DNA of 64,000 nucleotides, taken from Frondihabitans sucicola (GTDB lineage: Bacteria; Actinomycetota; Actinomycetes; Actinomycetales; Microbacteriaceae). The stretch's first letter is position 1. Every line of letters starts with the position of its first letter. Positions 4,635-24,205 of the stretch are shown here, one piece after another. The position numbers were made by a program, and so were the translations under genes. The stretch covers positions 2,545,042-2,609,041 of the forward strand of contig NZ_AP027732.1 of assembly GCF_030296615.1 (NCBI RefSeq), in the 5' to 3' direction. The notes under the pieces are model-generated. The model saw only the letters and a program-made list of their open reading frames with translations, was not told the DNA's origin and did no database searches.

Positions 4635-4693
4635 CGGGAATTGCATCTAATGCAGGAACTCCCGCTCAACGACCAGGACAACAAAAAGCCAGG
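4635..4693. repeat. left terminal inverted repeat of the element (contains palindrome TGCATctaATGCA)
   Basis: about 55/59 identity with the reverse complement of 23739-23797. Confidence 0.7.
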
Positions 4694-4768
4694 TCGGTGC
4701 CGTATTCGGCTCCCAGTGAATAACTATCAGGGACGCTTCTCTTGCCGTCAGATCCGCATAGGCGTAGG

Positions 4769-4797: not shown

Positions 4798-5937
4798 TTG
4801 GAGAACCGGATGGATGGCGAATTTCCGGGCTTTGTCCCGAAGGTCTTGCTTGATCCTTCTATCGCGTTGTTTCGCGCCGAAGACCGCGTATTCGAGGCGA
4901 TGGTTGATGGTTGGACGTCGGAGATGCTGGCTCGTGGCAATCAGGTGTCAACGATCAAGGATCGCGTGAGCTTGCTCAGGCGGTTCCAGTCGTTTACCAA
5001 TGATTACCCGTGGATGTGGGGTCCAGGCGATATCAACGAGTTCGCGGCCGAGCGACTGTCCGGTGAGCGGCCGATCAAGCCCACAACCCTCCGCACCGAC
5101 TCGAATACGATCGCGATGTTCTGCTCTTATGTGTCTAATCCGGCCTACGGCTGGGTGGCCTTTTGCGAACGGACATTCGACTCAATTCCTTCACAAATCG
5201 TGTTCGAGTGGAACAGCCCGCACCACTCGGCCGACGATGCTGTTCCGACAGGCAAACGAGCTTTTACTAAGCCGGAGCTTCAGCTCATCTTCGACTATGT
5301 TGACGACCTCGCAGACAGTGAATATGCCCGTGGGTCCAAGCGCTGGCCGAACTTGCTCCGTGACTCCAATGCATTCAAGATCTGCTATGCCTACGGCCTT
5401 AGACGTCGGGAACTCACCATGCTCGACACTGTCGATTTCGGACCCAATCCATACGTCCCCGATTACGGCATGTTCGGCGCCCTCACCGTGCGTTGGGCCA
5501 AAGGGGTCAAGGGATCGGGTCCACGACGCCGAACGGTACTGACTGTCCCCGAGTTCGACTGGGTGGTCGAGCTAGCCGACAAGTGGATCAGCTCAGAACG
5601 CCGCGGACGTTTCTCTCACGCCGACGGATCGCTCGCCCTTTGGCCGAGTGAGCGGGGTAACCGCATCTCCCTCGGCACATTAGGCGACGCGTTCACCGCA
5701 GCTCGACGCGCCGTCGGCCTACCCGAAGATCTCGGCCTTCATTGCCTCCGGCACTCCTACGTCACGCACCTGCTGGAGGCGAAATATGACCCGCTGTTCG
5801 TTCAGCAGCAGGTCGGGCACGCCTACGCCTCCACCACGAGTCTCTACACCTCGGTGTCCGACAACTTCAAACAGAGAGCGGTCCAGGAAATGATTGCTGC
5901 ACGCGTTCCAGCCAAGACGGAGACTGCCCATGCCTGA
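4798..5937 (+). CDS. tyrosine-type site-specific recombinase/integrase (catalytically intact)
   Basis: C-terminal box II HCLRHSYVTHLLEAKYDPLFVQQQVGHAYASTTSLYTSV (HxLRH...LGH...Y); TTG at 4798 or ATG at 4810; stop overlaps the next start. Confidence 0.85.
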   Translation: MENRMDGEFPGFVPKVLLDPSIALFRAEDRVFEAMVDGWTSEMLARGNQVSTIKDRVSLLRRFQSFTNDYPWMWGPGDINEFAAERLSGERPIKPTTLRTDSNTIAMFCSYVSNPAYGWVAFCERTFDSIPSQIVFEWNSPHHSADDAVPTGKRAFTKPELQLIFDYVDDLADSEYARGSKRWPNLLRDSNAFKICYAYGLRRRELTMLDTVDFGPNPYVPDYGMFGALTVRWAKGVKGSGPRRRTVLTVPEFDWVVELADKWISSERRGRFSHADGSLALWPSERGNRISLGTLGDAFTAARRAVGLPEDLGLHCLRHSYVTHLLEAKYDPLFVQQQVGHAYASTTSLYTSVSDNFKQRAVQEMIAARVPAKTETAHA

Positions 5938-6283
5938 AATCCGCCGAATCGGCTTCCATTGGAAACTCCGTGCCGTCATGGCCCAGCACAACCTCTGGAA
6001 GTCCACCGACCTCATGCCGCTGCTAAAATCGAGGGGCGTGAACCTCTCCGAAAGTCAGATTTATCGACTCGTCACCGGCTCCCCCGAGCGCATTCCCGCA
6101 CGCACTTTCGCGGTACTCTGCGACATCTTCGACTGCACGCCCAATGACCTCTTCGAACCATTTGTCGAGATGCGGGCCGCCGCGACCGCCAACGCGCCAA
6201 AGGACGTCGAGGATTTGACTTCCACGCCGGGACAGCCGCTAACGCACCGGGTGCGTCTGAGCCGCGTCGAAGACGATGAGTAG
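5930..6283 (+). CDS. XRE-family helix-turn-helix DNA-binding protein
   Basis: ATG overlaps the integrase stop (ATGcctGA); KSTDLMPLLKSRGVNLSESQIYRLVTGSPERIPARTFAVLCDIFDCTPNDLFE = HTH_XRE. Confidence 0.7.
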   Translation: MPEIRRIGFHWKLRAVMAQHNLWKSTDLMPLLKSRGVNLSESQIYRLVTGSPERIPARTFAVLCDIFDCTPNDLFEPFVEMRAAATANAPKDVEDLTSTPGQPLTHRVRLSRVEDDE

Positions 6284-6668
6284 GCCAAAGCAGCCCGAGG
6301 ACCCGGAGCGCTTTCCGCTTGCCTGCGCGCGCTGTCATGAGCATCGGGCCCTGGCAGCTTTTTTCGGGACTGAAGGGAGCGTCTGCGTCAACTGCTACAT
6401 GAAAGCCAAGCGCACCCGTGGGGTCTGCGCCTGTGGGCACGAGGGGGTCCTTCCTGGCATGGTTGGGGGGCAGCCGGCGTGCCGAGCATGCAGCGGTGTA
6501 AAGCTCAACATCGACTGCGTCTCATGCGGAACCGAGGACGAACTCTATTCAGGTGGACGGTGCTGGAACTGCACACTCCGTGAAGCCGTGGATTCCGCCC
6601 TGACGAACCCGTCGACCGGCACAATCTCCCCGCGCTTGTCCCCCTGGCGACGGCACTCAAAGGGATGA
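6276..6668 (+). CDS. cysteine-rich (multi-CxxC, zinc-ribbon-like) protein of unknown function
   Basis: 130 aa with CARCHEH, CVNC, CACGH, CRAC, CVSC, CWNC motifs; overlaps both neighbours by a few nt (operon). Confidence 0.45.
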   Translation: MSRPKQPEDPERFPLACARCHEHRALAAFFGTEGSVCVNCYMKAKRTRGVCACGHEGVLPGMVGGQPACRACSGVKLNIDCVSCGTEDELYSGGRCWNCTLREAVDSALTNPSTGTISPRLSPWRRHSKG

Positions 6669-7747
6669 AGAGGGCAAACAGCGGGCTCACCTGGATTAGA
6701 CAGGATCACGTTCAGGCATTCCTCCGCACCCTCGCCACCTCAGACACGATCACTCAGGAGAGCCTTGATGCCCTCCCAAAAACGAAGACGCGCGAATACG
6801 TCCGCGGCCTCCTTGTCGAGCACGGAATCATCGTCACCCGCGACGACTATCTCGTCCGCTACACCGCGTGGTCCAACGAAGCCGTCGAGCGACTCGTCCA
6901 CGCGCCGGATAAAGCTATCGTGGTCCGCTACGTCCGGTGGCAGCACCTACGGCGCATGCAGCAGATGGACGAGGTGACGATCGGCACATTCCTTCGCTCG
7001 AAGCAGACCGTCACGGTTGCCATCGACTTTCTTAACTGGCTACATCATGAGGGAGTGCTCTTCGCGGACGTCCGTCAAGCGCATCTCGACGAGTGGATTA
7101 ACACTGGACCTTCGACACGAAAGATCGCCAATCGATTCCTTCGTTGGGCTATCAAGACCCGTCTCGTAAAGCCCGACTTGACAATTGCACCGCACCGGCG
7201 TGGCACGGCCGAGCGACTGGATGCTTCGGCTCAAGGAGCCGCCCTTGAACGCGTCGTCCATACCGACGAGCTGGCGCCCCGTGAGCGAATAGCGGCGACG
7301 CTCGTCCTCGTCTTCGGCCAGCAGGTTCGAGACATCGTGACCCTTACCTGGGACCGGGTGCGCATCGAAGACGGTCTCGTCACAATTCGCATGGGCGGGT
7401 TCGACATCGACCTCCCGGCTCCCCTCGACGAGCCATGGCGGCAGCTTGCGGCCCACTCGCCGAACATGCAGACCGCGGCCCACCCGCATAGCTCTTGGGT
7501 CTTCCCCGGGACCAAGCCCGGCTATCACGTCAACCCGAGTCACATGCGGAACCGGCTAAAGCAATACTTCAGCGCACGCGCCGCGCGCCTTGGTACCCTC
7601 CACGAACTCTCCAAACTCGGCCCGATCCCTGTGATCGCCGACGCACTCGGCTATCGGCCGCAAACCATTGAGGCTCACGCAAAAGACTCCGCCTCCGCCT
7701 ACGCCCGCTATGTCGCGTCGATTCGCAGTGAAGACCAGCCAGATTGA
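6665..7747 (+). CDS. tyrosine recombinase-like protein, probably catalytically degenerate
   Basis: N-terminal SAM-like core-binding domain (QAHLDEWI...), catalytic-domain start ...GQQVRDIVTLTWDRVRIEDGLVTIR...DLPAPL, but box II reads HELSKLG...LGYRP...YARY (conserved Arg replaced by Ser, His by Tyr). Confidence 0.55.
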   Translation: MKRANSGLTWIRQDHVQAFLRTLATSDTITQESLDALPKTKTREYVRGLLVEHGIIVTRDDYLVRYTAWSNEAVERLVHAPDKAIVVRYVRWQHLRRMQQMDEVTIGTFLRSKQTVTVAIDFLNWLHHEGVLFADVRQAHLDEWINTGPSTRKIANRFLRWAIKTRLVKPDLTIAPHRRGTAERLDASAQGAALERVVHTDELAPRERIAATLVLVFGQQVRDIVTLTWDRVRIEDGLVTIRMGGFDIDLPAPLDEPWRQLAAHSPNMQTAAHPHSSWVFPGTKPGYHVNPSHMRNRLKQYFSARAARLGTLHELSKLGPIPVIADALGYRPQTIEAHAKDSASAYARYVASIRSEDQPD

Positions 7748-7833: not shown

Positions 7834-9649
7834 TCAGCTGAGTCCCGCTTCCAGCCGAATACGGGCAAGATCCCTATGCTCGGGTATCCCGGTGATTGAC
7901 CATGGCTCCGGAACGACAAGGTCATTTTTTAGAAGTTCAGAACTATAGATCCGGAACGGGGTTCCATCCATGGGCTCCAGTCTGATATTCATGCCCTTTG
8001 CCGTGCCGCCCAAGAGTCGCCTTCGCACCTCGTCGGCATCCGCGATTTTCATCCTTGGGTGAAAAATGTTTGGTTCGGGTATTAAGACTGGATTGTCCAG
8101 CACGTTGACGCCTGAACCTTCTCCCCGGAAACGCTCCGGTTTAAGATGGCACCTCCCGCGTCCAGCAAGACCATCAGGCCCTCGTCCATTGAGCCGCTGA
8201 GAGTGGCTTTCATCGAAGAATAGTTAGGGATGAGGGCGCATTTTCCTTCCAGCAGCATCCGTGCGATCCGCGTCCAAATACGCTCCGCAGCCTCAGGCAA
8301 CTCCTGCGGAAAAGCGAAGGTCACATCGCCCAACTTCTCGATCACAGACAAGTCCTCGGCATACTCGCTCAATTTTGGGTCAGCCGCTCTTAGGTCTGCC
8401 CCCTGTGGGAGCGCCGCGCTGACCGACTTTCCACTCAGGGTGAGCCGGAGTCGTTGAGCCCGAGGAAGGGTGTCCATAAAGCGAACTACCCGGTTGACGG
8501 CCACGCCGGACCGTCCCACAGCATCAAAGGTCATGTCTGTGGAACCAGAAAGGCTGTCTCGTGGGAAGCGCCAGAACATTGAAAGGACTTCTTCGAAGGA
8601 CACCTCGATAAAGCCGCCTTCCGTGCCGTTCCCCACATCGGTGCTCGTGCCAGTAAGCCCGCCAAGGTGCGTGCCGTCAGCGGCGTATGAGTCGATGCGG
8701 GCTGGTTCACCTTGGTGAGCGTCACGAACGGGGATTACCGAGACTGCATAGCCGCTCTCCGTCCCCGAAAACCAGTCGGCCGGCCCGTCATAGACCAGTG
8801 AATGGACGTTCTGCTCCGGCAAGTCGAGACGCGTGCCCCGTCCGTAGCCGAACACATCTTTCGTCAGTTTTGCCAGTTCCGCATCCTCACGGCCGAACAA
8901 CATGTTGACCGTGATCGACAGCGGTTCCATGTCCGCTGCGTCTTCCCTCTTCGCGTACAATTCCCACCCTGGCAATCCGTCGACGACAGCCAGTCGGCGA
9001 CCCCAGTACAGGCTGAAAGTGTTCTGGTCGGCAATGTACCGAGCTAGCCCGTCGTGGGCCTCTTGAAGAGTTCTAGGTGCTGCATCCTTATGGCCAATCC
9101 TTGAAAGGGCCAAGTCCACCGCGCTGCGCACGCTCCAGTCTTGGACGTCGGGATGTTTGGCGAGGAGTCTGTCCAGCTCAACGGAGCCAAGAATGTGAGT
9201 TCGAATCGAGGTGCCATCGCTCAGCTTCGAAACCCACTTTTGTTCGGCGTCCGTAAACTCTTCTGGCACCACCAAGGTCCAGTCCGGCATGCCCAGGGCT
9301 GTCGCTGTCGTGAACGACTTCTTGATTTGCTTGCGTCGACTGTCACGCCAGCCCCCGAAAAGCCTTCAGGGAAATGCTTCAGTTGAAACACATGGACGAC
9401 TGAACCAGATGTCTTGTCCCGAAAGACGATGTCGATGCCGCCGTCACCGCCGCGGCCGCTGGGTGCCGAAGCGGCGTATCCGAGGGCGTCACCGTCACGA
9501 GTGATAAGCACGTTCACGATTCGCTCGAAGTCCTCGCGGGAAATTGTCCGCCACTGAACTTTTTCGACCACGGACTCTCCCCCATTGCAGCACTGCGTCA
9601 ATCGTATCGGCGCCAACGCACTGACCAGGGACGAGACGAAATGCCTCAC
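7834..9649 (-). CDS. Mrr-like PD-(D/E)xK restriction-endonuclease N-terminal domain fused to a ~450-aa domain of unknown function; two apparent single-base frameshifts (~9354 in a G6/C6 run, ~8106)
   Basis: N-terminus ...SREDFERIVNVLITRDGDALGYAASAPSGRGGDGGIDIVFRDKTSGSVVHVFQLKHF (D-GGIDIV...QLK = Mrr catalytic motif); three successive frames join into one ~600-aa protein if one base is restored at each junction; lower GC than surroundings. Confidence 0.5.
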
Positions 9650-9832
9650 CCTGACGAGGAGGCAGACGCGTCTCCGCGAGATGGAGAACGCTGTTCCGTA
9701 CGTCGCACTGGCGCGATCGCAGCACGTCGCTCAGTTGTCGTTGGCATTTCGTCGCAGCCGGCGATTTGACTCCGCCGCTGTCACCCAAGCGGCGATCCTT
9801 CAAAGCGCATTCTTAGGCGAGGGGCGTCGTTC

Positions 9833-15400: not shown

Positions 15401-16069
15401 CTAGTCGTCCTCTTCCGCTTCGCGTTCACCGGTCAGCACGGATACGGGAACGGTGCAGCTGTCGCCCTTCCATGCCTCGACGCCTTCTTTGACGGCGAAG
15501 CCGACGACGACGAGGGCTGCGATGGGGTCGGCCCAGGTCCACCCGAACAAGCTGTTGAGCAGGAGCCCGACGAGGACCGCCGCGGACAGGTAGGCGCAGA
15601 TGAGGGTCTGTTTGGAGTCGGCGATCGCGGACGCCGATCCCAGTTCTCGTCCGGTGCGGCGTTCGGCAAGGCTCAGGGCAGGCATGATCAGCAAGCTGAT
15701 GACGGTGAGGACGATGCCGATGGGGCTGTGCTCGGCCTGACGGACGCCTGTTAGCGACAGGGCGGCGTCGATGGTGACGTAGATCGCGAGAGCAAAGAAC
15801 GAAATTGCGATGACGCGGAGGGCGGTCCGCTCCCTGGCCTCGGGATCGCGGGCGGTGAATTGCCAGGCGATTGCCGCGGCGGAGAGGACTTCGACGATGG
15901 AATCTAGGCCGAAGCCGACGAGGGCTGCGGAGGAGGCCATGGTACCGGCGGTGATCGCGACGACCGCCTCGATGGCGTTGTAGGTGATGGTCGCCGCGAC
16001 GATCAGCCGTATCCGGCGGCGTAAGATCCGGGTACGAGGCGGGACAGCGAGGGCTTCGGTGCTGGTCAT
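15401..16069 (-). CDS. cation diffusion facilitator-like membrane protein (short form lacking the cytoplasmic domain)
   Basis: TM protein with LVGFGLDSIVEV, ADSKQT, WADPIAALVV motifs typical of the CDF TM core; ATG overlaps the upstream CDF stop. Confidence 0.6.
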   Translation of the reverse strand: MTSTEALAVPPRTRILRRRIRLIVAATITYNAIEAVVAITAGTMASSAALVGFGLDSIVEVLSAAAIAWQFTARDPEARERTALRVIAISFFALAIYVTIDAALSLTGVRQAEHSPIGIVLTVISLLIMPALSLAERRTGRELGSASAIADSKQTLICAYLSAAVLVGLLLNSLFGWTWADPIAALVVVGFAVKEGVEAWKGDSCTVPVSVLTGEREAEEDD

Positions 16070-16998
16070 GCGTGGTCCGTTCCGGGTTCGTGGGCGGTGT
16101 GGCCGGCGGGTTCGAGTTGGAAGGTGCTGTGCTCGACGTCGAAATGGCCGACCAGGCACGCTTGCAGTTCGTCGAGGACTCGGGGTGCGTGGCCGTCCTG
16201 GAAGCACTCGTCCGTCAGGGTCACGTGCGCTGACAGGGCGGGGAGGTCCGAGGTGACGGTCCACGCGTGGAGGTCGTGGATTGCGAGAACGTGGGCGGGT
16301 TCGAGTAGGTGCCCTCGGATGGCGTCAAGGTCCACACCTTCTGGGGTGCCCTCGAGGAGGATGCGGCCGGAGTCTTTCAGCAGCCCCCACGCCGCATGCA
16401 GCATCAAGACCACAACGATCAGGGAGGCGATGGAGTCGGCGCGGGTGAAGCCGGTGACGAGGATGACGATCCCGGCGACGACGGTGGCGATGAACCCATA
16501 CAGGTCGGTGAGGATGTGCTGGAAGGACCCTTCGACGTTCAGGCTCTGACGGTTGGCTTTCGCTAGCACCCACACGGCGACGAGGTTCACGGCCACTCCG
16601 AGGAGCGCGACGACGAGGACCGGGCCGCCTTCGACCTCGGGTGGGTCGAGGAGGCGTCGGATGGCTTCGACGGCGACGATGCCACTGATGACGACGAGGG
16701 TGACGCCATTCACCGCGGCGGAGAGGATCTCGGCGCGCTTCAGCCCGAATGTCCACCTTGAGCTGCTGGGGCGGGCAGCGAGTCGGATCGCGACGAGCGA
16801 CCCGGCGAGGGCGGCGGCGTCGGTGAGCATGTGACCGGCGTCCGAGAGCAGTGCCAGCGAGCCGGAGATGATGGCGACGATGACCTCGATGAGGAGGAAA
16901 CCGACGATCAGGGCCAGGGCGATGCTGAGGAGCCGGGTGTTCGCGTCGGGGGCGGCCCCGTGGCTGTGTGCTTTGTCGTGCTGGTGGGTGTCGGTCAC
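16066..16998 (-). CDS. cation diffusion facilitator (CDF) family metal efflux transporter (CzcD/ZitB-like)
   Basis: His-rich N-terminus THQHDKAHSHG, LLSDAGHMLTDAAALAGSL, C-terminal cytoplasmic domain; GTG start overlaps the regulator stop (GTGA). Confidence 0.8.
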   Translation of the reverse strand: MTDTHQHDKAHSHGAAPDANTRLLSIALALIVGFLLIEVIVAIISGSLALLSDAGHMLTDAAALAGSLVAIRLAARPSSSRWTFGLKRAEILSAAVNGVTLVVISGIVAVEAIRRLLDPPEVEGGPVLVVALLGVAVNLVAVWVLAKANRQSLNVEGSFQHILTDLYGFIATVVAGIVILVTGFTRADSIASLIVVVLMLHAAWGLLKDSGRILLEGTPEGVDLDAIRGHLLEPAHVLAIHDLHAWTVTSDLPALSAHVTLTDECFQDGHAPRVLDELQACLVGHFDVEHSTFQLEPAGHTAHEPGTDHA

Positions 16999-17400
16999 TG
17001 GTCGGTTCCGGTGGTCTCGGGGTGGATCGCGACCGTGTGACCGGTGTGGGTGAGCCCGAGGTCGAGGAGCATCCGGACGTGGCCGTCGTCGAGGCGGTAG
17101 TACGCCATCCGCCCACGACGTGCGACCGACACCACCCGGTGCGCCCGAAGGAGCCGGAGTGCGTGACTGACAGAGCTTTCGCTCATCGCCGTTGTCGCCG
17201 CGAGATCGCACACACATCTCACCGCCTTCGAGAAGAGACATCAGAAGGCGAAGCCGGCCTGGGTCGCCGAGAAGAGAGAACACGTCCGCCAGCTCGACGA
17301 CGTCTTCCGCGTCGGGCAGGCTGCGTCGAACCAGGTCGACCTTGTCCGGGTCGACCATCTTCAGCTCGCAACTATCGATGCTCGCCAGATCGCTCGCCAT
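16995..17400 (-). CDS. ArsR/SmtB family metalloregulator (NmtR/KmtR/CzrA-like) with a 2-bp frameshift inside a (TG)n run at ~17213
   Basis: DVFSLLGDPGRLRLLMSLLEGGEMCV then CDLAATTAMSESSVSHALRLLRAHRVVSVARRGRMAYYRLDDGHVRMLLDLGLTHTGHTVAIHPETTG; restoring TG in ATGTGTGTG(TG)CGAT joins the frames. Confidence 0.7.
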
Positions 17401-18070: not shown

Positions 18071-18637
18071 ATGGCATCCGTCGGCTACGCCCGCGTCTCC
18101 ACCCAAGAGCAGAACCTCGACGCACAAACGGACGCCCTCGAGGCGGCCGCCTGCGACAAGGTGTTCGTCGAGCATGCCTCCGGGGTTCTCGCGAAACGGC
18201 CCGCCCTGGATGATGCCCTCGACTACCTCCGCGAAGGCGACACTCTAGTCGTCACGAAACTCGACCGACTCGGCCGCTCCGTCCGGAACCTGAAAGAGAT
18301 CGCTAACGGACTCGAGCGCCGCGGCGTTGGCCTCAGAGCCCTGTCGCAGGGCATCGACACGACCACCCCCGGCGGCCGGCTGTTCTTCCACATGCTCGCG
18401 GCCATTGCGGAGTTCGAGCACGACCTCATCGTCGAACGCACGAAGGACGGTTTAGCTGCCGCCCGAGCCCGCGGCCGAAAAGGCGGCGGGCGTTCAAAGA
18501 TGACCGCCACGAAAGCCAAGCAGGCCCGAGCGATGTACGACGAGAAGACCTATACCGTCCAGCAGATTGCTGACACCTTCGGCGTCTCACGCGGCACCAT
18601 CTACCGGCACCTCGAAGAAGACATCAGCTCCATTTAG
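18071..18637 (+). CDS. serine recombinase (resolvase/invertase, Hin/Gin/Pin family)
   Basis: MASVGYARVSTQEQNLDAQTDALE... catalytic Ser in YARVST; C-terminal HTH YTVQQIADTFGVSRGTIYRHL. Confidence 0.85.
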   Translation: MASVGYARVSTQEQNLDAQTDALEAAACDKVFVEHASGVLAKRPALDDALDYLREGDTLVVTKLDRLGRSVRNLKEIANGLERRGVGLRALSQGIDTTTPGGRLFFHMLAAIAEFEHDLIVERTKDGLAAARARGRKGGGRSKMTATKAKQARAMYDEKTYTVQQIADTFGVSRGTIYRHLEEDISSI

Positions 18638-18715: not shown

Positions 18716-18772
18716 CACTTTGACATAGTCGTCTTTCGCTTCACGTTCACCCGTCAGCACGGACACAGGTCC
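18716..18772 (-). pseudogene. 3'-terminal remnant (~17 codons) of a paralogue of the short CDF gene 15401-16069
   Basis: translates MPLGPVSVLTGEREAKDDY..., matching the ...CTVPVSVLTGEREAEEDD end of 15401-16069; nucleotide similarity to 15404-15460; upstream part replaced by lower-GC DNA. Confidence 0.5.
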
Positions 18773-18864
18773 AAGCGGCATGAAAAACACACATCGAGAG
18801 ACAAGCGGGAACCGGCCAATCGACGTGGCAATCCTGCGGGCTATCCATATCTGGACTTACGACA

Positions 18865-19974
18865 TCAAAACGACCAAGGATCCAGGCGCGTGATGGCGAG
18901 TACGGCGGAGTCATCCGCATTGCCCACGAAGCCTCCACCCACCGATATTTCCCCTTGCCATGCAATTGTCGCGCCGACGCGGCACTTTTCAATTTCCGGA
19001 AGGCGGAGGCGAGTTCTGTCGAAAAGAAGTTCGCCGTCATCGTCGGTCGCCGCTTCGCGGATAGTTCGGTCACCCATGTCGAAGATGAAATTGTGATTCT
19101 CAGTTTGCACGTGCCAGAGACCTTGGTCGTTGTCGCGCAACTCAACGATCTGCTGCCCGATGTGGACGACGTCAGTGATTTCCGAAGGACTTTGACTCAA
19201 GGGAAATAGCTCTCCGACGCCCTGGGCCAAGAATGCAAGGCTGTCAAAGATATCGACCGCAATCATCAACGCGCTGCCGGAGTGAGTCTCGATGCTGATT
19301 TGATCTCCTCGACTGGCAACGTCGGCGACCAGGTCGGTGAATTGGCCAGAAGCGTCGTGGACGGAAATCGATCGTCGCGCAGGGAACTGTCCCGATGGCG
19401 TCACGTCGGCCTCACTCTCCGATGTGAGGGAGCTTCTCTCGTCGAGACGGTAGATCCCCGTGACGGCTGATCTAGAGGATCTCTGCGTCACTTCCCCTAT
19501 CCGGGCAGTAGACCAGGTCGCCACGGCTCCGACGCTGACCTCGACAATGGCGCCGAAGCCTTCACGTCCCATTGGGGTTCCACCACTTCCCGTCCGCTGG
19601 CCATAGAGCTGCCGGGCATCCATGTCGAAGATGAACAACTCGTCAGAGGTTCCGACCTTCCACGTGCCGGAGTCGGAATCGTAGAGATCTGTGATGGAGT
19701 CCCAGCGCGAGGTGTGCATGCCCGCATCGACGCGCTGGATATCGGGCTGGTTGAGAGCGACCAGCTCGGTGACGAGCGGGATCCAGGGTGCGAGATAGCT
19801 GGACGGGAGGAGAACGGCTCCGCCCCATCGTGACGTCGCCAAGATGGGTTCGCATCGGGAGATCACCGACGCGAGCACGCGCTCCAGGCCCTGCTGTATG
19901 TCGACTGCGGGTCTCGTCAGCACAATCGCCTCCCTGTGAGTCGGGAGATGGTCGTCCGCGAACCTCGTTGCCAC
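18865..19974 (-). CDS. hypothetical protein with two internal repeats (hFIFDMxxR motifs)
   Basis: 369 aa; LYDSDSGTWKVGTSDELFIFDMDARQLYG and NDQGLWHVQTENHNFIFDMGDRTIREA; last gene of a translationally coupled operon; low GC. Confidence 0.45.
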   Translation of the reverse strand: MATRFADDHLPTHREAIVLTRPAVDIQQGLERVLASVISRCEPILATSRWGGAVLLPSSYLAPWIPLVTELVALNQPDIQRVDAGMHTSRWDSITDLYDSDSGTWKVGTSDELFIFDMDARQLYGQRTGSGGTPMGREGFGAIVEVSVGAVATWSTARIGEVTQRSSRSAVTGIYRLDERSSLTSESEADVTPSGQFPARRSISVHDASGQFTDLVADVASRGDQISIETHSGSALMIAVDIFDSLAFLAQGVGELFPLSQSPSEITDVVHIGQQIVELRDNDQGLWHVQTENHNFIFDMGDRTIREAATDDDGELLFDRTRLRLPEIEKCRVGATIAWQGEISVGGGFVGNADDSAVLAITRLDPWSF

Positions 19975-19975
19975 C

Positions 19976-20773
19976 TCATCCCCACCTCCAGTGGAGCGTT
20001 TCTAGTTCAAGAACGCCGATATTTCCCGGTCGTTCATCGGGCGCCATGGAATAGACGCGACGGCCGTCTTCGAGGGTTGCTTCGGCTCGGCTGTGGATGT
20101 GGCCGTGGAACAGGATGCCAGGGTGGATGGCATTCCACAGGTCTGTTGTTCGGGAGCGCGAGATGGCGGACGCCCAGAGTCGGTCCGCTGGCCATCTGCC
20201 GGGGTTCCGTCCTTCCTCGATGCCTGCCGTCGCTTCGGTGGCGCCGTTGACGGCCTCGTGAGTGAGCATGATGTCTGCCGGGCCCGATAGAGCGGCCTCC
20301 GCGTACGCTTCTTTGCGGGCGACCTCGTCTGGCCACCAATCGCGGTTTTTTCCGTGAGCATTTCGCCGGTGCCGATCTACCGACGCCGCTCCCCCGAACG
20401 ACATGAACGTGCGCCCTCCGATCACGAAACGGTATCCGTGTGGCAGGACCCAGATGTGCTGACCGATCCGAACGGGCTCTCGTCGCACCCATGCAGGTGT
20501 GCTTCTAAGGCGGCCATAGTCTTCATGGTTTCCGGGGGTAATGAGAACTTGCTCGATCCCATTGCCGCGGCACCGGGCGTCGACCATGTTCACGAAAGCC
20601 TTGGCGACGCGACCTCGCCCGATGTTGAAATCGCCCAATTGCAAGATCGTCTTCGCCCCTGGCGCCATCTGTGCGGCGCGAGGGATGACCTTCATGGCCC
20701 AGATGATGTTGCTGTGCCAATCTCCCGCCACGACCACGCGCGGATCCGCCGCGTCGGGAACCCACGCGGTCAT
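19976..20773 (-). CDS. calcineurin-like metallophosphoesterase
   Basis: VVVAGDWHSN, GDFN, ITPGNHE, FHGHIH motifs; stop overlaps the upstream gene. Confidence 0.75.
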   Translation of the reverse strand: MTAWVPDAADPRVVVAGDWHSNIIWAMKVIPRAAQMAPGAKTILQLGDFNIGRGRVAKAFVNMVDARCRGNGIEQVLITPGNHEDYGRLRSTPAWVRREPVRIGQHIWVLPHGYRFVIGGRTFMSFGGAASVDRHRRNAHGKNRDWWPDEVARKEAYAEAALSGPADIMLTHEAVNGATEATAGIEEGRNPGRWPADRLWASAISRSRTTDLWNAIHPGILFHGHIHSRAEATLEDGRRVYSMAPDERPGNIGVLELETLHWRWG

Positions 20774-21432
20774 ACCCCGGATCGATCGGCAATAGTGCGT
20801 TGAAGATCGTTCAATGCATTTAGAACGGGTTGCATGTCGCCTCCACTGCTGAGCCAACCGACGGGAGTGGCCGCCGCATGTCGGCGCAGCGTGGGTTGAG
20901 CGTCGTACATGAAGTCGCCGAGGTCATGGATTCGTTTGGCGTCTTCAAGATCGTGCAGGCCCTGGAGGCTGTTGAGCAGGCCGGTATGGGTCGAAGAGTC
21001 GATTTGCCAGGCGGGAATGAGCACGAGGTTTCCCACAAAGAATGCTGACAAAAGGCCACTGGCCAGCCACGCATCGACCTGTTGAAGAGGGATGTTTAGG
21101 TATGAGGCGAGGCTTTGCGGGACGAACGCGGACGCGATGTTGAGAATGAGGCTTCCCGCCAGCTCTACATGAAGTTGCCCACTCCGGGCGGCTTCCTCAG
21201 CGTCCGAGAGTTGCGTGCTCGTGACAATCCCGGAGTCCACGAGGAAAGAACGAACGTCCTCGGTGAGCATCGACGCGCCCGGACCAGGCGCGCTCCTAAG
21301 GGCACTATTGACCGCCGCCCATCCCGTTTCGGAGTCGACGTCCCCCGAGTGCAGGAGGGCGTGCAGCCCCTGAGAGTCTCGTCGGAGGGACGCGTCCGCT
21401 TCCAGGCGAGCCTCAGTAGGTCGGTCAGTCAC
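20770..21432 (-). CDS. hypothetical protein with two predicted TM helices
   Basis: 221 aa; GTG start overlapping the stop of 21425-21976; hydrophobic stretch LAGSLILNIASAFVPQSLASYLNIPLQQVDAWLASGLLSAFFVGNLVLIPAW. Confidence 0.4.
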   Translation of the reverse strand: MTDRPTEARLEADASLRRDSQGLHALLHSGDVDSETGWAAVNSALRSAPGPGASMLTEDVRSFLVDSGIVTSTQLSDAEEAARSGQLHVELAGSLILNIASAFVPQSLASYLNIPLQQVDAWLASGLLSAFFVGNLVLIPAWQIDSSTHTGLLNSLQGLHDLEDAKRIHDLGDFMYDAQPTLRRHAAATPVGWLSSGGDMQPVLNALNDLQRTIADRSGV

Positions 21433-21976
21433 GAGCGGCCTCAAGGGCGGAGAACAGACTGTCCTCCGCTCCTCCGACGTGGGCCCACTCGATGGCATTT
21501 AGAGCGAGATTCATCTTCAGAGCGCGTTGAGGGGTCGTCATGAATGCGCTCAGGAGTCGCCAGTCCATTCCGTCGGCACTTGAAAGGATTTGTTCCAGGC
21601 CCGGCAGGAGGTCGCGGGGACTCTCCTCTGTGAATTGCCAAAGCGGAACCCGCTGCTCCCCGTCCACGAGGACCGCCAGAAGACGGCCGGCAGCGATCAG
21701 CCCTCTGACCTCGCCTTGGGGAATCGTCAGGAGCGTGGCTGCTCGCGAAACACTGGTCGTCAAGATCGGCTCCCGCGCGTAGCTCGTCGCACAGAAGCTC
21801 TCGGCAGCTTCGGGCAACGGCCAGTCGCCAGACCGTTGCGGCGTCCTCGATGCACGAATAGACCCGCGCACTCCATCGGCGAGTCCCCTGAGAAATCCGG
21901 CCCGCCCGATTGAAAGCGTGTCAGCGAAGGCGAGGACTTGCTGGAAAGAGGCAGATACGAAGACGGCGGAATCCAT
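21425..21976 (-). CDS. excisionase-type (HTH_17/MerR-like) DNA-binding protein with C-terminal domain (possibly Xre/MbcA/ParS antitoxin-like)
   Basis: ATLLTIPQGEVRGLIAAGRLLAVLVDGEQRVPLWQF helix-turn-helix; C-terminal ~80 aa PQRALKMNLALNAIEWAHVGGAEDSLF. Confidence 0.45.
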   Translation of the reverse strand: MDSAVFVSASFQQVLAFADTLSIGRAGFLRGLADGVRGSIRASRTPQRSGDWPLPEAAESFCATSYAREPILTTSVSRAATLLTIPQGEVRGLIAAGRLLAVLVDGEQRVPLWQFTEESPRDLLPGLEQILSSADGMDWRLLSAFMTTPQRALKMNLALNAIEWAHVGGAEDSLFSALEAARD

Positions 21977-22148
21977 GGGACAGCTTTCGAGTGAGGCGAC
22001 CCCAAGCCGGGTCGTCGCGTGGAGCGAGCTGGCCGGTTGACCTGCTCACTTTCCTCTCGTGCTGCGTCCCTCACAGCGGTGTTGCGTCCGAACCTGACGG
22101 AGTGCGCTCCGCCCGGAAAGGATTGAATGTGGCCGGCGCTGACGTCGG

Positions 22149-22847
22149 TCATGCCATGTTCCAAATTTCGAAGAGGCGCTCCGATGAACCCTCCAGGTAG
22201 CGGAGCAGCGTTGCGGCGACCGGTCGAGCGGAACCTCCGCTGAGCAGAAAATCCCGAGGCGACAAGTGATCTTTGCCACGCCGCGGAAGAGTCGGATCAT
22301 CGAGCGTCATGATGGCTCTCGTGAATGCAGCGGGAATTTCCGGAGGTATCGCCGCGACGATCATCTCCATCTGCTGGGTTATGACCTTCGCGCTGCGGCC
22401 ATCGCTTGTAAATTCGAACTGCCACGACGGCAACAGGTACCGATCTGCGGCCCTGATCGCATGGAGCCTGCCCCACTCAATGTCGTCGAGTACGACACGC
22501 GTCGAACACCCCAGCAAGGACGCCACCTCGTTGGGAGTGAGTGACATGCCGACGTCGAGAAACGACATCCTCGCCAAGATCTCTCGGATGTCGTCGGCTT
22601 CTAGGTGACCATTGAGTCGAGATGGCCGCTCTTCCATGGTCAGCCGCTCCAGTAGCAGCAGGTGGTGCGCTTTTTTCAGCCCAAGCGAGTTGACACTGAG
22701 CGCCTCGAGGATCGAGCTGAGGTCGTTGACGGTGTCCACGGGATCGATGCCGAAGGCCTTGAGTGACATTTCTAGACGGCCGGCCGCGCTGGACCACGTA
22801 CGGAGGTCAGATCCCTGAGCCGACTGCGAGCCCGCTGACGATGCCAT
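22149..22847 (-). CDS. excisionase-type HTH protein, paralogous architecture to 21425-21976 (N-terminal extension + HTH + DUF2384-like C-terminus)
   Basis: SLTPNEVASLLGCSTRVVLDDIEWGRLHAIRAADRYLLPSWQF; C-terminal TLDDPTLPRRGKDHLSPRDFLLSGGSARPVAATLLRYLEG. Confidence 0.45.
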   Translation of the reverse strand: MASSAGSQSAQGSDLRTWSSAAGRLEMSLKAFGIDPVDTVNDLSSILEALSVNSLGLKKAHHLLLLERLTMEERPSRLNGHLEADDIREILARMSFLDVGMSLTPNEVASLLGCSTRVVLDDIEWGRLHAIRAADRYLLPSWQFEFTSDGRSAKVITQQMEMIVAAIPPEIPAAFTRAIMTLDDPTLPRRGKDHLSPRDFLLSGGSARPVAATLLRYLEGSSERLFEIWNMA

Positions 22848-22861
22848 GCCATCAAATTAGT

Positions 22862-22877
22862 ACACTTTTGTGTACTG
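22862..22877. promoter_or_regulatory. perfect 16-bp palindrome GTACACTTTTGTGTAC in the divergent promoter region (candidate XRE operator)
   Basis: seen directly, 14 bp downstream of the start of the (-) gene at 22847 and 66 bp upstream of the xre ATG. Confidence 0.5.
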
Positions 22878-22942
22878 TGCCATGGCTAGAGTTGCGGAAG
22901 TCTTGGACGGTGCCAAATTCTGGATCTGAGAACTTCGAGGCC

Positions 22943-23149
22943 ATGCGTTCTGCCCTGGAAAGGCTTCGGCACGAGCGGGGATTTAGCTTCGAGCGTTTGC
23001 GCGACGAATCGGGTGTCTCTCGGACAGCCATTATCAAGTTGGAACAGGGGCGATCCACGGGCAGCCTGAGGACATGGTGCAAAATTTCGAATGCCTTGGG
23101 AGTTCCCTTCTGGCAACTAGCTAAGTACCTGGACGAGCCAATCGGGTGA
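22943..23149 (+). CDS. XRE-family HTH transcriptional regulator (68 aa)
   Basis: MRSALERLRHERGFSFERLRDESGVSRTAIIKLEQGRSTGSLRTWCKISNALGVPFWQLAKYL. Confidence 0.6.
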   Translation: MRSALERLRHERGFSFERLRDESGVSRTAIIKLEQGRSTGSLRTWCKISNALGVPFWQLAKYLDEPIG

Positions 23150-23738
23150 ATGTGAGAAGGCCGTTGCACTTTTGTCAGAAGACGCGCCACCTACCGGATT
23201 GCTTCTTCGAGCGAACCGCGGCATGGGTCACGTGCCGCCTCGATACTGAGCGGGTGACGACTCGTGAAGACCTGCGGCCGCCGTGAGTTCGAATTCCACA
23301 ACTAAGCGCCCGCACCCGTAGTTCGGTCAACATACCTACATCCCTGAGTTCAGCCCTCGGAGTCACCGGGCGCTCGGCCTGAGCATCCCACCTCGGCACG
23401 ATTCTCATGGCTTGGGCGTCGTCATCGGACCCCGGCTGTCGTTGCTCGGACGACGGGAACAAAACTAGGAGCGGCGACCGCCGTTGTCGTTCTAAGTAGT
23501 CGCTGACCTGCGCCTATCTGTCGACAGCGGACCTACTCCGCCTGCTACTCAAAGTCCTCTTCGAATGGTGGTTCATCAATCCCATTGCGGCCCTCGTCCT
23601 CGTCTTCTTCGGCGTCCGCGAAAAAGTCGATGCCCGAAGGACGATGCCTGCGCCACGTTCGTAGGCATGCTCCTACGAAAAGTAAACGTTGACTTCATTC
23701 CTGCCCAAGGTTCTGCTTCCTTAGTCCAAGACTTCCCG

Positions 23739-23797
23739 GCCTGGCTTTTTGTTGTCCTGGTCGTTGAGCGCGACTCCCTGAATTAGATGCAACTCCC
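23739..23797. repeat. right terminal inverted repeat of the element
   Basis: reverse complement matches 4635-4693. Confidence 0.7.
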
Positions 23798-24205
23798 GGC
23801 TCCCGAACAGCGGCTCCTGCCAGTATTTCGGGCGATCCCGAGAGGGGTCGATTGGACGGAACCGGTGGCAAGGCTGCCGACGCTGACGGCCGTCGAAGGC
23901 TTGAGCGCGACTCCGGTGTTCGCCGACGCGGGCGAAGCGCCGGTGATGAGTGCTCCGACGAGCCCGCCGACGACGATGAGAGCGATGGCAATGTAGGGCG
24001 CGGTGCGGGGCCGTGTGTCATCCTGCGAGGAAACACCTCCGGTTCGTCGATTCTGCAGGTTGTAGACGACGGACGCGGCCATCAGCGCCAGACCGATCCC
24101 CCACAGCAGAATTGCAAGCCCCGAAAAGGCTGGGACGAACGACAGTGAAATGGCGCCGAGGGGCAGCACGGCCAAGGCGGCACTGCGTGAACGAATGGAC
24201 TGCAT
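23783..24205 (-). CDS. small membrane protein (3-4 TM); last codons and stop lie inside IR-R
   Basis: AAGGAAGG RBS then ATG; MQSIRSRSAALAVLPLGAISLSFVPAFSGLAILLWGIGLALMAASVV... Confidence 0.5.
   Translation of the reverse strand: MQSIRSRSAALAVLPLGAISLSFVPAFSGLAILLWGIGLALMAASVVYNLQNRRTGGVSSQDDTRPRTAPYIAIALIVVGGLVGALITGASPASANTGVALKPSTAVSVGSLATGSVQSTPLGIARNTGRSRCSGAGSCI

What the first reader, a model, noticed from the sequence alone, without database searches (positions are those of the whole stretch)
18771..23150. Lower-GC five-gene operon of unknown function with its own XRE regulator and a perfect palindromic operator: candidate novel accessory/defence system
GC content drops sharply at 18771, exactly where a truncated CDF gene remnant ends. 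Five minus-strand genes are chained by overlapping start/stop codons (GTGA, ATGA): a 369-aa protein with two internal FIFDM-containing repeats, a calcineurin-like metallophosphoesterase, a 221-aa two-TM protein, and an excisionase-type HTH protein. A second HTH protein of the same architecture (N-extension + HTH_17-like helix ending in WQF + DUF2384-like ~80-aa tail) lies upstream after a 170-bp gap. Opposite is a 68-aa XRE regulator, with the perfect 16-bp palindrome GTACACTTTTGTGTAC between them. The Xre/MbcA-like tails suggest antitoxin-like regulators, but no RES or other recognisable toxin is present. The effector set (phosphoesterase + membrane protein + repeat protein) does not match any system I know.
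Basis: partly seen in the sequence, partly recalled or inferred. Interest (0 to 1): 0.78.

Follow-up and report, generated by a model that had tools for sequence, protein, structure and literature searches.

The report
Phosphoesterase operon guarded by antitoxin-like proteins
A plasmid-borne operon in an actinobacterium holds one enzyme, a metallophosphoesterase, among five DNA-binding or antitoxin-like proteins; the same cassette recurs in related bacteria and looks like an undescribed toxin-antitoxin or defence module.

Summary
The source is a Frondihabitans sucicola plasmid.

There is only one enzyme: B, a metallophosphoesterase (MPE) with all catalytic motifs intact.
- The "two-TM membrane protein" (C) is a third paralogue of D and E. 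All three are Rv2175c-type winged-helix proteins (PDB 2KFS, E=5e-15).
- The "perfect 16-bp palindrome" is a 7-4-7 inverted repeat, AGTACAC-TTTT-GTGTACT. Two related loci with homologous XRE genes keep the geometry with different core bases.

Across 111 non-redundant MPE loci, 54 carry an Rv2175c-like gene and 25 a beta-domain gene next to the MPE. MPE-beta, MPE-wHTH and beta-wHTH fusions also occur. None of 36 viral MPE loci has either partner. Other loci pair the MPE with AbiEi-, VbhA- or XRE-type proteins.

Best reading, inferred and untested: an XRE-controlled toxin-antitoxin-like or abortive-infection module with the MPE as effector. PADLOC has no match and I found no paper describing it. 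It is a new variant of a known kind.

The parts
18726..18769 (-). Remnant of the 3' end of a CDF (cation efflux) gene; left edge of the cassette
   Evidence: tblastn with the intact CDF at 15401-16264 matches residues 273-286 at 86% identity; DNA is 88% identical over 41 nt.
18865..19974 (-). Gene A, 369 aa: tandem duplication of a unit made of a Phd/YefM-type head and a novel beta domain
   Evidence: Annotated as hypothetical protein GCM10025867_48210 on a Frondihabitans sucicola plasmid. An exhaustive phmmer search finds only 10 relatives. The unit HMM matches twice, at 9e-58 and 4e-58. AF2 model: mean pLDDT 72.8, domain cores 80-92.
19750..19920 (-). A, unit 1: Phd/YefM-like head (about aa 19-75, beta-alpha-alpha-beta-beta-alpha)
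19435..19692 (-). A, unit 1: beta domain (motifs G-x-W-x-V...FIFDMD...V-G...W...RLD)
   Evidence: Beta-domain HMM 2e-26; alignment A6; no Pfam or PDB sequence match.
19207..19377 (-). A, unit 2: Phd/YefM-like head (about aa 200-256)
   Evidence: Same evidence as unit 1.
18868..19152 (-). A, unit 2: beta domain (ELRDNDQGLWHVQT...FIFDMGDR...CRVG...ITRLDPW)
19976..20773 (-). Gene B, 265 aa: metallophosphoesterase, the only enzyme and the proposed effector or toxin
   Evidence: PF00149 1e-12; phrog_1649 8e-33. All catalytic residues are invariant in 40 homologues: D18 H20 D48 N82 H83 H172 H225 H227. AF2 pLDDT 93. Nearest folds are Dbr1 (E 2e-10), purple acid phosphatase, Mre11/SbcD and Rv0805.
20770..21432 (-). 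Gene C, about 220 aa (242 aa if ATG 21498 is used): Rv2175c-like wHTH protein; not a membrane protein
   Evidence: TIGR01764 excise HTH at residues 130-165; paralogue alignment; family HMM 7e-23; counterpart L042 206-aa protein.
21425..21976 (-). Gene D, 183 aa: Rv2175c-like wHTH protein
   Evidence: Rv2175c_wHTH 2e-4; family profile against PDB 2KFS E=5e-15; 40% identical to the L042 186-aa protein.
22149..22847 (-). Gene E, 232 aa: Rv2175c-like wHTH protein, first gene after the operator, followed by a 172-bp gap
   Evidence: HTH_17 4e-3; family HMM 2e-24; an E-like gene lies divergent from an XRE gene in L033.
22859..22876 (.). Putative operator: 7-bp perfect inverted repeat with 4-nt spacer, AGTACAC-TTTT-GTGTACT, 12 nt upstream of the E start codon
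   Evidence: The same 7-4-7 geometry with AGT...ACT ends and a different core occurs next to homologous XRE genes in L042 (AGTCCTC-GATC-GAGGACT) and L033 (AGTATCG-TCGG-CGATACT), and imperfectly in L067.
22943..23149 (+). XRE-family regulator, 68 aa (79 aa if GTG 22910 is the start), divergent from the operon
   Evidence: HTH_31 1e-7 and HTH_3 9e-7. Homologues at 38-42% identity flank the cassette in L042, L067, L136 and L033.
18071..18637 (+). Small serine recombinase (resolvase/invertase); context only, marks a mobile region
   Evidence: Resolvase 1.5e-46 and HTH_7. A resolvase lies near the MPE in only 5 of about 126 loci, so it is not part of the system.

Best explanation
The cassette is a mobile, self-regulated toxin-antitoxin-like module, possibly an abortive-infection or defence module.

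Shown:
- The operon encodes one enzyme, a catalytically intact metallophosphoesterase (B).
- The other five proteins are built from DNA-binding or antitoxin-type modules: an XRE repressor, three Rv2175c-type winged-helix proteins (C, D, E), and a protein (A) with two Phd/YefM antitoxin heads, each followed by a previously undescribed beta domain.
- The MPE, the Rv2175c-like module and the beta domain recur together in many actinobacterial loci and are sometimes fused to one another.

Inferred:
- The MPE is a growth-arresting phosphodiesterase. Its substrate is unknown; candidates are DNA, RNA or nucleotides.
- It is held inactive by binding to the beta domain of A and/or the tails of the Rv2175c-like proteins.
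- The Phd/YefM heads and winged helices tether these partners to DNA and autoregulate transcription, as in type II antitoxins.
- The XRE dimer binds the 7-4-7 inverted repeat between the divergent genes and sets the basal level.
- Loss or titration of the partners, through plasmid loss or an invading element, would release the MPE.
For: 1. Composition.
- MPE motifs are intact and the model is confident.
- A's heads are Phd/YefM by sequence (E 1.2e-5) and by fold.
- The C/D/E family profile hits Rv2175c at 5e-15 and ParS DUF2384 weakly. Individual members hit Xre_MbcA_ParS_C at 1e-4.

2. Conserved synteny.
- L042 has XRE <-> D-like, C-like, MPE, A-like at 26-50% identity.
- L067 has XRE <-> 2 wHTH, MPE, beta. 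L060, L065, L066 and L077 have 2 wHTH, MPE, beta.
- Among 111 non-redundant MPE loci, 54 have a co-directional Rv2175c-like gene, 25 have a beta or s97 gene, and 19 have both.

3. Fusions.
- MPE-beta in L136.
- MPE-linker-wHTH in L033.
- wHTH-s97 in L070.
- Beta-wHTH-wHTH in L015.

4. Partner swapping typical of toxins.
- AbiEi_4-like protein upstream of the closest genomic MPE, L047, and in L001.
- VbhA-type 65-aa protein overlapping the MPE stop in L052-54, and an MPE-VbhA fusion, P0046.
- XRE fusions and DUF1778-like neighbours, the latter judged by eye.

5. Viral contrast. None of 36 viral MPE loci has a wHTH or beta partner, as expected if partners are needed only where the enzyme must be kept silent.

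6. Context. Plasmid label; resolvase and CDF remnants beside the cassette. Relatives sit beside Tn7/Mu-like transposons, methyltransferase, HD, RHS, NB-ARC, SIR2 and reverse transcriptase genes.

7. Precedents. A phage MPE is toxic and degrades DNA (PMC12287305). A Calcineurin-type MPE plus HAD acts as a dNTP-depleting abortive-infection effector (bioRxiv 10.64898/2026.01.15.699771). HAD-like genes flank this MPE family in 7 loci.

8. Operator. The geometry is conserved and the core bases co-vary in L042 and L033.
Against: - No toxicity, binding or defence data exist; everything about mechanism is inference from context.
- Four antitoxin-like proteins for one toxin is far more than a classical TA module needs.
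- 51 of 111 MPE loci have neither conserved partner. Some are short contigs, and some have other partner types.
- Fusion of a toxin to its own neutraliser is uncommon, although fused TA sensors exist.
- The beta domain has no known fold relative that implies inhibition. It could equally be a specificity or sensor subunit.
- The MPE is unrelated in sequence to the one phage MPE shown to be toxic.
- PADLOC finds nothing. That is neutral, not supportive.
Confidence: 0.45

Rival explanations
1. Mobile-element establishment or counter-defence module. The MPE works for the plasmid, as phage MPEs work for phages: for example by degrading host DNA or a nucleotide immune signal, or by helping replication. 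The wHTH and Phd-like proteins are then only a layered transcriptional switch that times its expression, not neutralisers.
For: - The family has about 279 actinophage homologues and 24 on large actinobacterial plasmids.
- On a Rhodococcus plasmid it lies next to a DUF932 gene.
- A phage MPE of another family enables evasion of host defence (PMC12287305).
- The nearest fold is Dbr1, a 2'-5' phosphodiesterase, which is compatible with cleavage of 2'-5'-linked signals or branched nucleic acids.
Against: - Viral copies never carry the wHTH or beta partners (0 of 36), so the cellular clade has acquired something the phage function does not need.
- MPE-beta and MPE-wHTH fusions point to physical complexes rather than purely transcriptional control.
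- Swapping with AbiEi- and VbhA-type antitoxin proteins is typical of toxins.
Confidence: 0.25
2. Non-conflict nucleotide or phosphoester metabolism. The MPE, with a HAD partner in some genomes, would be a scavenging or pool-sanitising enzyme under local transcription-factor control.
For: - HAD-like genes lie next to the MPE in 7 loci.
- The MPE fold is generic, with neighbours including purple acid phosphatase, GpdQ and Rv0805.
Against: - Patchy distribution, plasmid and transposon-adjacent context, and lower GC.
- The partners are antitoxin-type modules: Phd/YefM, AbiEi, VbhA, DUF2384-like.
- There are no transport or catabolic genes in the operon.
Confidence: 0.1
3. Phospho-signalling module. 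The MPE would be a protein phosphatase that dephosphorylates the Rv2175c-like regulators, whose M. tuberculosis namesake loses DNA binding when its Thr9 phosphorylation site is mimicked (T9D) after modification by PknL.
For: - C, D and E belong to the Rv2175c family.
- Rv2175c is a PknL substrate regulated through Thr9 (PMC4601284).
- The MPE superfamily includes PPP protein phosphatases, which appear as weak PP2A hits.
Against: - B lacks the PPP signature GDxxDRG; it has LGDFNIG.
- Structurally it is nearer Dbr1, purple acid phosphatase and Mre11 than PP1/PP2A.
- There is no kinase in the operon or in L042.
- According to the review, the regulated N-terminal extension of Rv2175c is specific to M. 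tuberculosis.
Confidence: 0.07
4. Recombination directionality or accessory function for the neighbouring serine recombinase, by analogy with Bxb1 gp47, an MPE-like protein that acts as a recombination directionality factor (the gp47 role is from my own knowledge), and with excisionase-type HTH proteins.
For: - A resolvase gene lies 230 bp from the cassette.
- C and E hit the excisionase HTH model weakly.
- CDF remnants lie on opposite strands either side of the cassette, which hints at past rearrangement.
Against: - B shows no sequence relationship to Bxb1 gp47.
- The recombinase is a small resolvase/invertase, not a large serine integrase.
- A resolvase is near the MPE in only 5 of about 126 loci.
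- L042 and L067 have the cassette with no recombinase seen in the stretch available.
Confidence: 0.03

Closest known systems
Type II toxin-antitoxin systems with Phd/YefM-type antitoxins (Phd-Doc, YefM-YoeB, RelJK)
   Same: - A carries two Phd/YefM N-terminal heads.
- It has the modular plan of a DNA-binding head plus a partner-binding part.
- The genes are tightly coupled and sit on a mobile element under autoregulation-type control.
   Different: - There is no Doc, YoeB or RelE toxin; the only enzyme is an MPE.
- The disordered toxin-binding tail is replaced by a folded, undescribed beta domain.
- The antitoxin-like unit is duplicated in one chain and lies downstream of the enzyme.
- Three extra wHTH proteins and an XRE regulator are present.
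Xre/MbcA/ParS-RES toxin-antitoxin systems (HTH + DUF2384 antitoxin)
   Same: C, D and E have an HTH followed by an alpha-helical tail of about 80 aa. The tail resembles DUF2384 weakly: ParS E 0.078, and Xre_MbcA_ParS_C at 1e-4 for two family members.
   Different: - No RES-domain toxin is present.
- The HTH is an excisionase/Rv2175c-type winged helix, not an Xre type.
- The strong match is to Rv2175c, not to MbcA or ParS.
M. tuberculosis Rv2175c (PDB 2KFS), a DNA-binding substrate of the kinase PknL
   Same: The family profile of C/D/E matches it across both the wHTH and the C-terminal domain, E=5e-15.
   Different: Rv2175c is paired with a kinase gene and is a stand-alone chromosomal regulator (PMC4601284). 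Here the family is multiplied and linked or fused to an MPE and a beta domain on mobile DNA.
PUA-Calcineurin-CE-HAD abortive-infection system (bioRxiv 10.64898/2026.01.15.699771)
   Same: A calcineurin-type MPE acts as effector in a conflict system. A HAD phosphatase is a recurrent partner; HAD-like genes lie next to this MPE family in 7 loci.
   Different: - B has no PUA sensor domain; it is a single-domain 265-aa protein.
- There is no HAD gene in this window.
- The partners here are wHTH, Phd and beta proteins.
- Sequence relationship to Calcineurin-CE could not be tested.
Phage metallophosphoesterases (A10ZJ24 Gp48 / Bxb1 gp47 family; phrog_1649 family)
   Same: - B belongs to phrog_1649 (8e-33) and is 25-33% identical to MPEs of large actinophages.
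- Gp48 shows that a phage MPE can be a toxic DNase.
   Different: - B is not detectably related to the Gp48/gp47 family.
- The phrog_1649 phage proteins are uncharacterised and have no wHTH or beta partners.

Membership tests
Metallophosphoesterase superfamily (PF00149) | Five metal-binding motifs: D-x-H, G-D, G-N-H-[ED], H, G-H-x-H | tested here: met
   PF00149 at 49 bits against a cut-off of 21.5. D18, H20, G47-D48, G81-N82-H83, H172 and G224-H225-x-H227 are invariant in 40 homologues. MPE fold, pLDDT 93.
Phd/YefM type II antitoxin family | N-terminal beta-alpha-alpha-beta-beta-alpha dimerisation and DNA-binding domain | tested here: met
Phd/YefM type II antitoxin family | Cognate Doc, YoeB or RelE/ParE-type toxin gene adjacent | tested here: not met
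   No such protein among the ORFs at 18.7-23.2 kb. The adjacent gene is an MPE.
Phd/YefM type II antitoxin family | Short, intrinsically disordered C-terminal toxin-binding tail | tested here: not met
   Each head is followed by a folded all-beta domain of about 95 aa, pLDDT 80-92.
Xre/MbcA/ParS-RES toxin-antitoxin | Antitoxin with a C-terminal DUF2384 (PF09722) toxin-binding domain | tested here: inconclusive
   Two of 24 family members hit PF09722 at 1e-4. The profile against ParS 6d0h gives E 0.078. C, D and E themselves do not reach any threshold.
Xre/MbcA/ParS-RES toxin-antitoxin | RES-domain toxin gene adjacent | tested here: not met
   No RES hit for any operon protein.
Rv2175c family of DNA-binding proteins | Rv2175c-type winged helix followed by the Rv2175c C-terminal helical domain | tested here: met
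   Profile A5 against 2KFS gives E 5e-15 over residues 30-144 of 148. Rv2175c_wHTH and Rv2175c_C hits occur in individual members.
Rv2175c family of DNA-binding proteins | Regulation by Ser/Thr kinase phosphorylation of an N-terminal Thr; adjacent pknL-like gene | tested here: not met
   No kinase gene in the operon or in L042. Phosphorylation itself cannot be tested with these tools.
PUA-Calcineurin-CE-HAD defence module | PUA-like sensor domain fused to the calcineurin-type MPE | tested here: not met
   B is a single-domain 265-aa protein with only a Metallophos hit.
PUA-Calcineurin-CE-HAD defence module | HAD phosphatase partner gene | tested here: not met
   None in the window. HAD-like genes flank related MPEs in 7 other loci.
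PUA-Calcineurin-CE-HAD defence module | MPE belongs to the Calcineurin-CE clade | not testable with these tools
   No Calcineurin-CE sequence or model was available. None appeared among the Foldseek PDB hits.
Bxb1 gp47 / A10ZJ24 Gp48 phage MPE family | Sequence homology to gp47 | tested here: not met
   BLASTP E 0.99; hhalign probability 0.6%.
Known anti-phage defence systems (PADLOC-DB v2) | Any component matches a system model | tested here: not met
   A to E give no hit. Only the XRE gene matches generic HTH or control-protein models.

The most novel reading that the evidence does not exclude
A new family of actinobacterial immune or addiction modules. A Dbr1/Mre11-fold metallophosphoesterase would be kept auto-inhibited by a previously undescribed beta domain, which occurs free, fused to Phd/YefM heads, fused to Rv2175c-type winged helices, or fused to the enzyme itself. 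The enzyme would be released by an invading element and arrest the cell. This would add both a new toxin class and a new neutraliser or sensor domain to the TA and defence repertoire.
Probability: 0.3. Interest if true: 0.75.

Novelty: new variant of a known kind. Interest (0 to 1): 0.6.

Why it matters
- Metallophosphoesterases are only now emerging as effectors in phage-bacterium conflicts. The examples I found are a toxic phage DNase and the PUA-Cal-HAD dNTP sink.
- This cassette would give a third, genetically simple setting: a single-domain MPE with swappable antitoxin-type partners.
- It also defines a beta domain with no Pfam or PDB sequence match. Its fusion pattern predicts direct binding to the enzyme.
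- It places the poorly understood Rv2175c family of 'DNA-binding-domain-only' regulators in a conserved functional context.
- It suggests a possible role, as a weapon used without a neutraliser, for the uncharacterised MPE genes found in 279 actinophage genome records.
- The predictions can be tested with a few clones.

Tried and rejected
- Word-index homologue searches for A and for its unit profile returned only A itself or P0063. The exhaustive phmmer search was needed.
- The look-up of encoding contigs found no record for A itself or for P0066.
- Megablast of the region against PLSDB found no match, so the source plasmid is not in that collection.
- Scans of metagenome and viral contigs with the A-unit pattern found nothing. 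The MPE profile was used instead.
- Rfam and promoter/terminator scans of the region gave nothing above chance.
- Two-TM membrane protein reading for C: rejected.
- Kinship with the toxic phage MPE Gp48 / Bxb1 gp47: rejected.
- Functional link to the adjacent resolvase: rejected as a general feature.
- A first GC3-filtered ORF map of the loci was too crude, because the islands have lower GC. It was replaced by six-frame HMM scans.
- The 97-aa 's97' proteins join the beta-domain family only at moderate confidence: hhalign probability 63%, E 7e-5. Alignment A6 is nonetheless consistent with membership.

Full report
**Source and setting.** The two central proteins are identical to hypothetical proteins GCM10025867_48210 and _48200, labelled '(plasmid)', of Frondihabitans sucicola, a member of the Microbacteriaceae. 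The window averages 67% GC. A tract from about 17.2 to 24.3 kb is lower, at 0.60-0.62 against 0.65-0.69 outside. This tract holds a small serine recombinase (18071-18637; Resolvase 1.5e-46), the cassette, and two CDF gene remnants. One remnant is the last 14 codons of a CDF gene at 18726-18769 on the minus strand. The other is a more divergent piece at 23323-23634 on the plus strand. The cassette therefore sits in a rearranged accessory region of a plasmid.

**Anatomy.** Five minus-strand genes are tightly packed:
- E at 22149-22847, followed by a 172-bp gap.
- D at 21425-21976.
- C at 20770-21432, overlapping D by 8 nt.
- B at 19976-20773, with an ATGA overlap with C.
- A at 18865-19974, starting 1 nt after the B stop.

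A 68-aa XRE gene (79 aa from an alternative start) diverges from E. Between them lies AGTACAC-TTTT-GTGTACT (22859-22876), a perfect 7-bp inverted repeat with a non-palindromic 4-nt spacer, 12 nt upstream of the E start codon.

**What the proteins are.**
- *B* is a metallophosphoesterase (MPE). It scores 1e-12 against PF00149 and 8e-33 against phrog_1649. Every metal-binding residue is conserved. The AF2 model is confident (pLDDT 93). Its nearest solved folds are Dbr1 (E 2e-10), purple acid phosphatase, Mre11/SbcD, Rv0805 and GpdQ. That places it in the superfamily without naming a substrate.
- *C, D and E* are paralogues, 25-28% identical, with a shared P-x-WQ[FI] wing and tail. C has an excisionase-type HTH at residues 130-165. 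A family profile built from 24 members matches M. tuberculosis Rv2175c (PDB 2KFS) at E=5e-15 across both the winged helix and the C-terminal domain. The same profile matches the ParS DUF2384 antitoxin only weakly, at E 0.078. A few members reach Xre_MbcA_ParS_C at 1e-4.
- Each head in A is followed by an all-beta domain of about 95 aa with the motifs EL-x-D-x-x-G-x-W-x-V-x-T, [FY]-x-x-D-[LM]-D-x-R, C-R-V-G and I-x-R-L-D. This domain has no Pfam or PDB sequence match and only weak fold resemblances.

Of six proteins, five are built from DNA-binding or antitoxin-type modules and one is an enzyme.

**Conservation.**
- *A is rare.* An exhaustive search of 1.8 billion cluster representatives finds ten relatives.
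- *L042.* One relative, P0062 (34% identity, also two units), lies on a metagenome contig with the same order: XRE (41% identical, divergent), a D-like gene (40%), a C-like gene (26%), an MPE (50%), then the A-like gene.
- *MPE loci.* The MPE is commoner, so I used its profile to fetch 41 genome loci, 80 metagenome loci and 36 viral loci. I scanned them with HMMs for each module.
- *Partner counts.* Among 111 non-redundant cellular MPE loci, 54 carry a co-directional Rv2175c-like gene directly up- or downstream. 25 carry a beta-domain gene, usually a single-domain protein of about 120 aa starting 40-140 nt after the MPE stop. 19 carry both.
- *Fuller cassettes.* L067 repeats the full window layout with an XRE homologue. 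L060, L065, L066 and L077 have two wHTH genes, the MPE and a beta gene.
- *Fusions.* The modules are also fused: MPE-beta (L136), MPE-linker-wHTH (L033), wHTH-beta (L070), and beta-wHTH-wHTH (L015).
- *Viral loci.* None of the 36 viral MPE loci has either partner.

**Other partners and context.**
- The closest genomic MPE (61% identical, L047) is preceded by an overlapping AbiEi_4-like protein. It is followed by a protein that reads by eye as a PD-(D/E)xK-type nuclease. The surrounding stretch carries D12 methyltransferase, HD, M78 peptidase and RHS genes.
- In Microbacterium (L052-54) a 65-aa VbhA-type protein overlaps the MPE stop, next to a Tn7/Mu-like transposon. An MPE-VbhA fusion also exists.
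- Other loci show XRE-fusion, DUF1778-like, HTH-nucleotidyltransferase and trypsin-like neighbours; these assignments were made by eye from the sequences.
- HAD-like genes flank the MPE in 7 loci.
- A single-unit A relative sits among reverse transcriptase, SIR2 and AAA-S8 protease genes (L044).
- A resolvase is near the MPE in only 5 loci.

**Operator.** Homologous XRE genes (38-42% identical) flank the cassette in L042, L033, L067 and L136. Their intergenic regions contain AGTCCTC-GATC-GAGGACT (L042) and AGTATCG-TCGG-CGATACT (L033), and an imperfect AGTACAA-CTTT-CTTTACT (L067). All share the 7-4-7 geometry and the AGT...ACT ends of the window's repeat, but their cores differ. Symmetry preserved while the bases change is good evidence that this is the XRE operator.

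**Interpretation.** The parts list, the synteny and the fusions are shown. The mechanism is inferred.
- An enzyme that is patchily distributed on mobile DNA, is translationally coupled to small DNA-binding proteins, trades partners among several antitoxin families, and stands alone only in viruses behaves like a toxin or effector.
- A has the standard plan of a type II antitoxin: a Phd/YefM DNA-binding head plus a partner-binding part. Here that part is the beta domain, whose fusion to the MPE in L136 predicts direct contact.
- I therefore favour an XRE-controlled toxin-antitoxin-like or abortive-infection module with the MPE as effector (confidence 0.45).
- Precedents show that MPEs can play this role. 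Phage A10ZJ24 Gp48 is a toxic DNase (PMC12287305). The PUA-Calcineurin-CE-HAD filament depletes dNTPs (bioRxiv 10.64898/2026.01.15.699771). B is not a member of either family: it has no detectable similarity to Bxb1 gp47, no PUA domain and no HAD gene here.
- The main rival (0.25) is that the MPE serves the plasmid, as phage MPEs serve phages, and the HTH proteins merely time its expression.
- Metabolic, phospho-signalling and recombination-factor readings are less likely, for the reasons given under rivals.

**Weak points.**
- There is no functional evidence of any kind.
- Four antitoxin-like proteins for one enzyme is unexplained.
- Nearly half of the MPE loci lack both conserved partners.
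- The substrate is unknown.

**Novelty.**
- A to E match no PADLOC model.
- No paper in the searched library describes an MPE paired with Rv2175c-like or Phd-like proteins.
- The general logic, a regulated toxic effector on a mobile element, is well known. I therefore rate this as a new variant of a known kind, with an undescribed domain and an unusual toxin class.

Noticed in passing
window 23323-23634 (+) and 18726-18769 (-): Two CDF gene remnants flank the cassette on opposite strands. The right one covers aa 158-264 at 38% identity; the left one covers aa 273-286 at 86%. This could record an inversion or two separate truncations next to the resolvase gene.
   Followed up: partly
window 23736-23798 and 4635-4697: A 63-nt sequence is repeated in inverted orientation at 90% identity, about 19 kb apart. 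It may be a mobile-element end or a repeated intergenic element.
   Followed up: no
window 16066-17400 (-) and 16995-17222 (-): The 444-aa CDF ORF begins with half of an ArsR-type HTH, and the rest of an ArsR-like protein is in another frame as a 75-aa ORF. The ArsR gene upstream of the CDF gene looks frameshifted or overlapping.
   Followed up: no
L044 1-16447: A single-unit relative of A (P0065) lies between a transposase gene and an AAA + S8 protease pair. Two reverse-transcriptase genes and a SIR2_2 gene are nearby, so the stretch resembles a defence island.
   Followed up: no
L043 353-2208 and L013 about 8800-9670: A 287-aa trypsin-like serine protease follows a two-unit A relative in L043, with no MPE in the short stretch available. 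A protease of the same size follows the MPE in L013. It may be another swappable partner.
   Followed up: no
L136 4373-5695; L033 7833-9482: Single open reading frames fuse the MPE to the beta domain (441 aa) and to an Rv2175c-like module through a (TE)n linker (550 aa). L136 is a metagenome contig, so a sequencing frameshift cannot be excluded.
   Followed up: partly
L051 (Bxb1 NC_002656) 5876-6788: In this RefSeq record the label 'recombination directionality factor' is on gp46 and 'metallo-phosphoesterase' on gp47. From my own knowledge the published RDF is gp47, so the annotation looks shifted by one gene.
   Followed up: no
L042 1037-1375: An Lsr2-type nucleoid-associated protein gene lies just beyond the XRE gene of the related cassette.
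   Followed up: no
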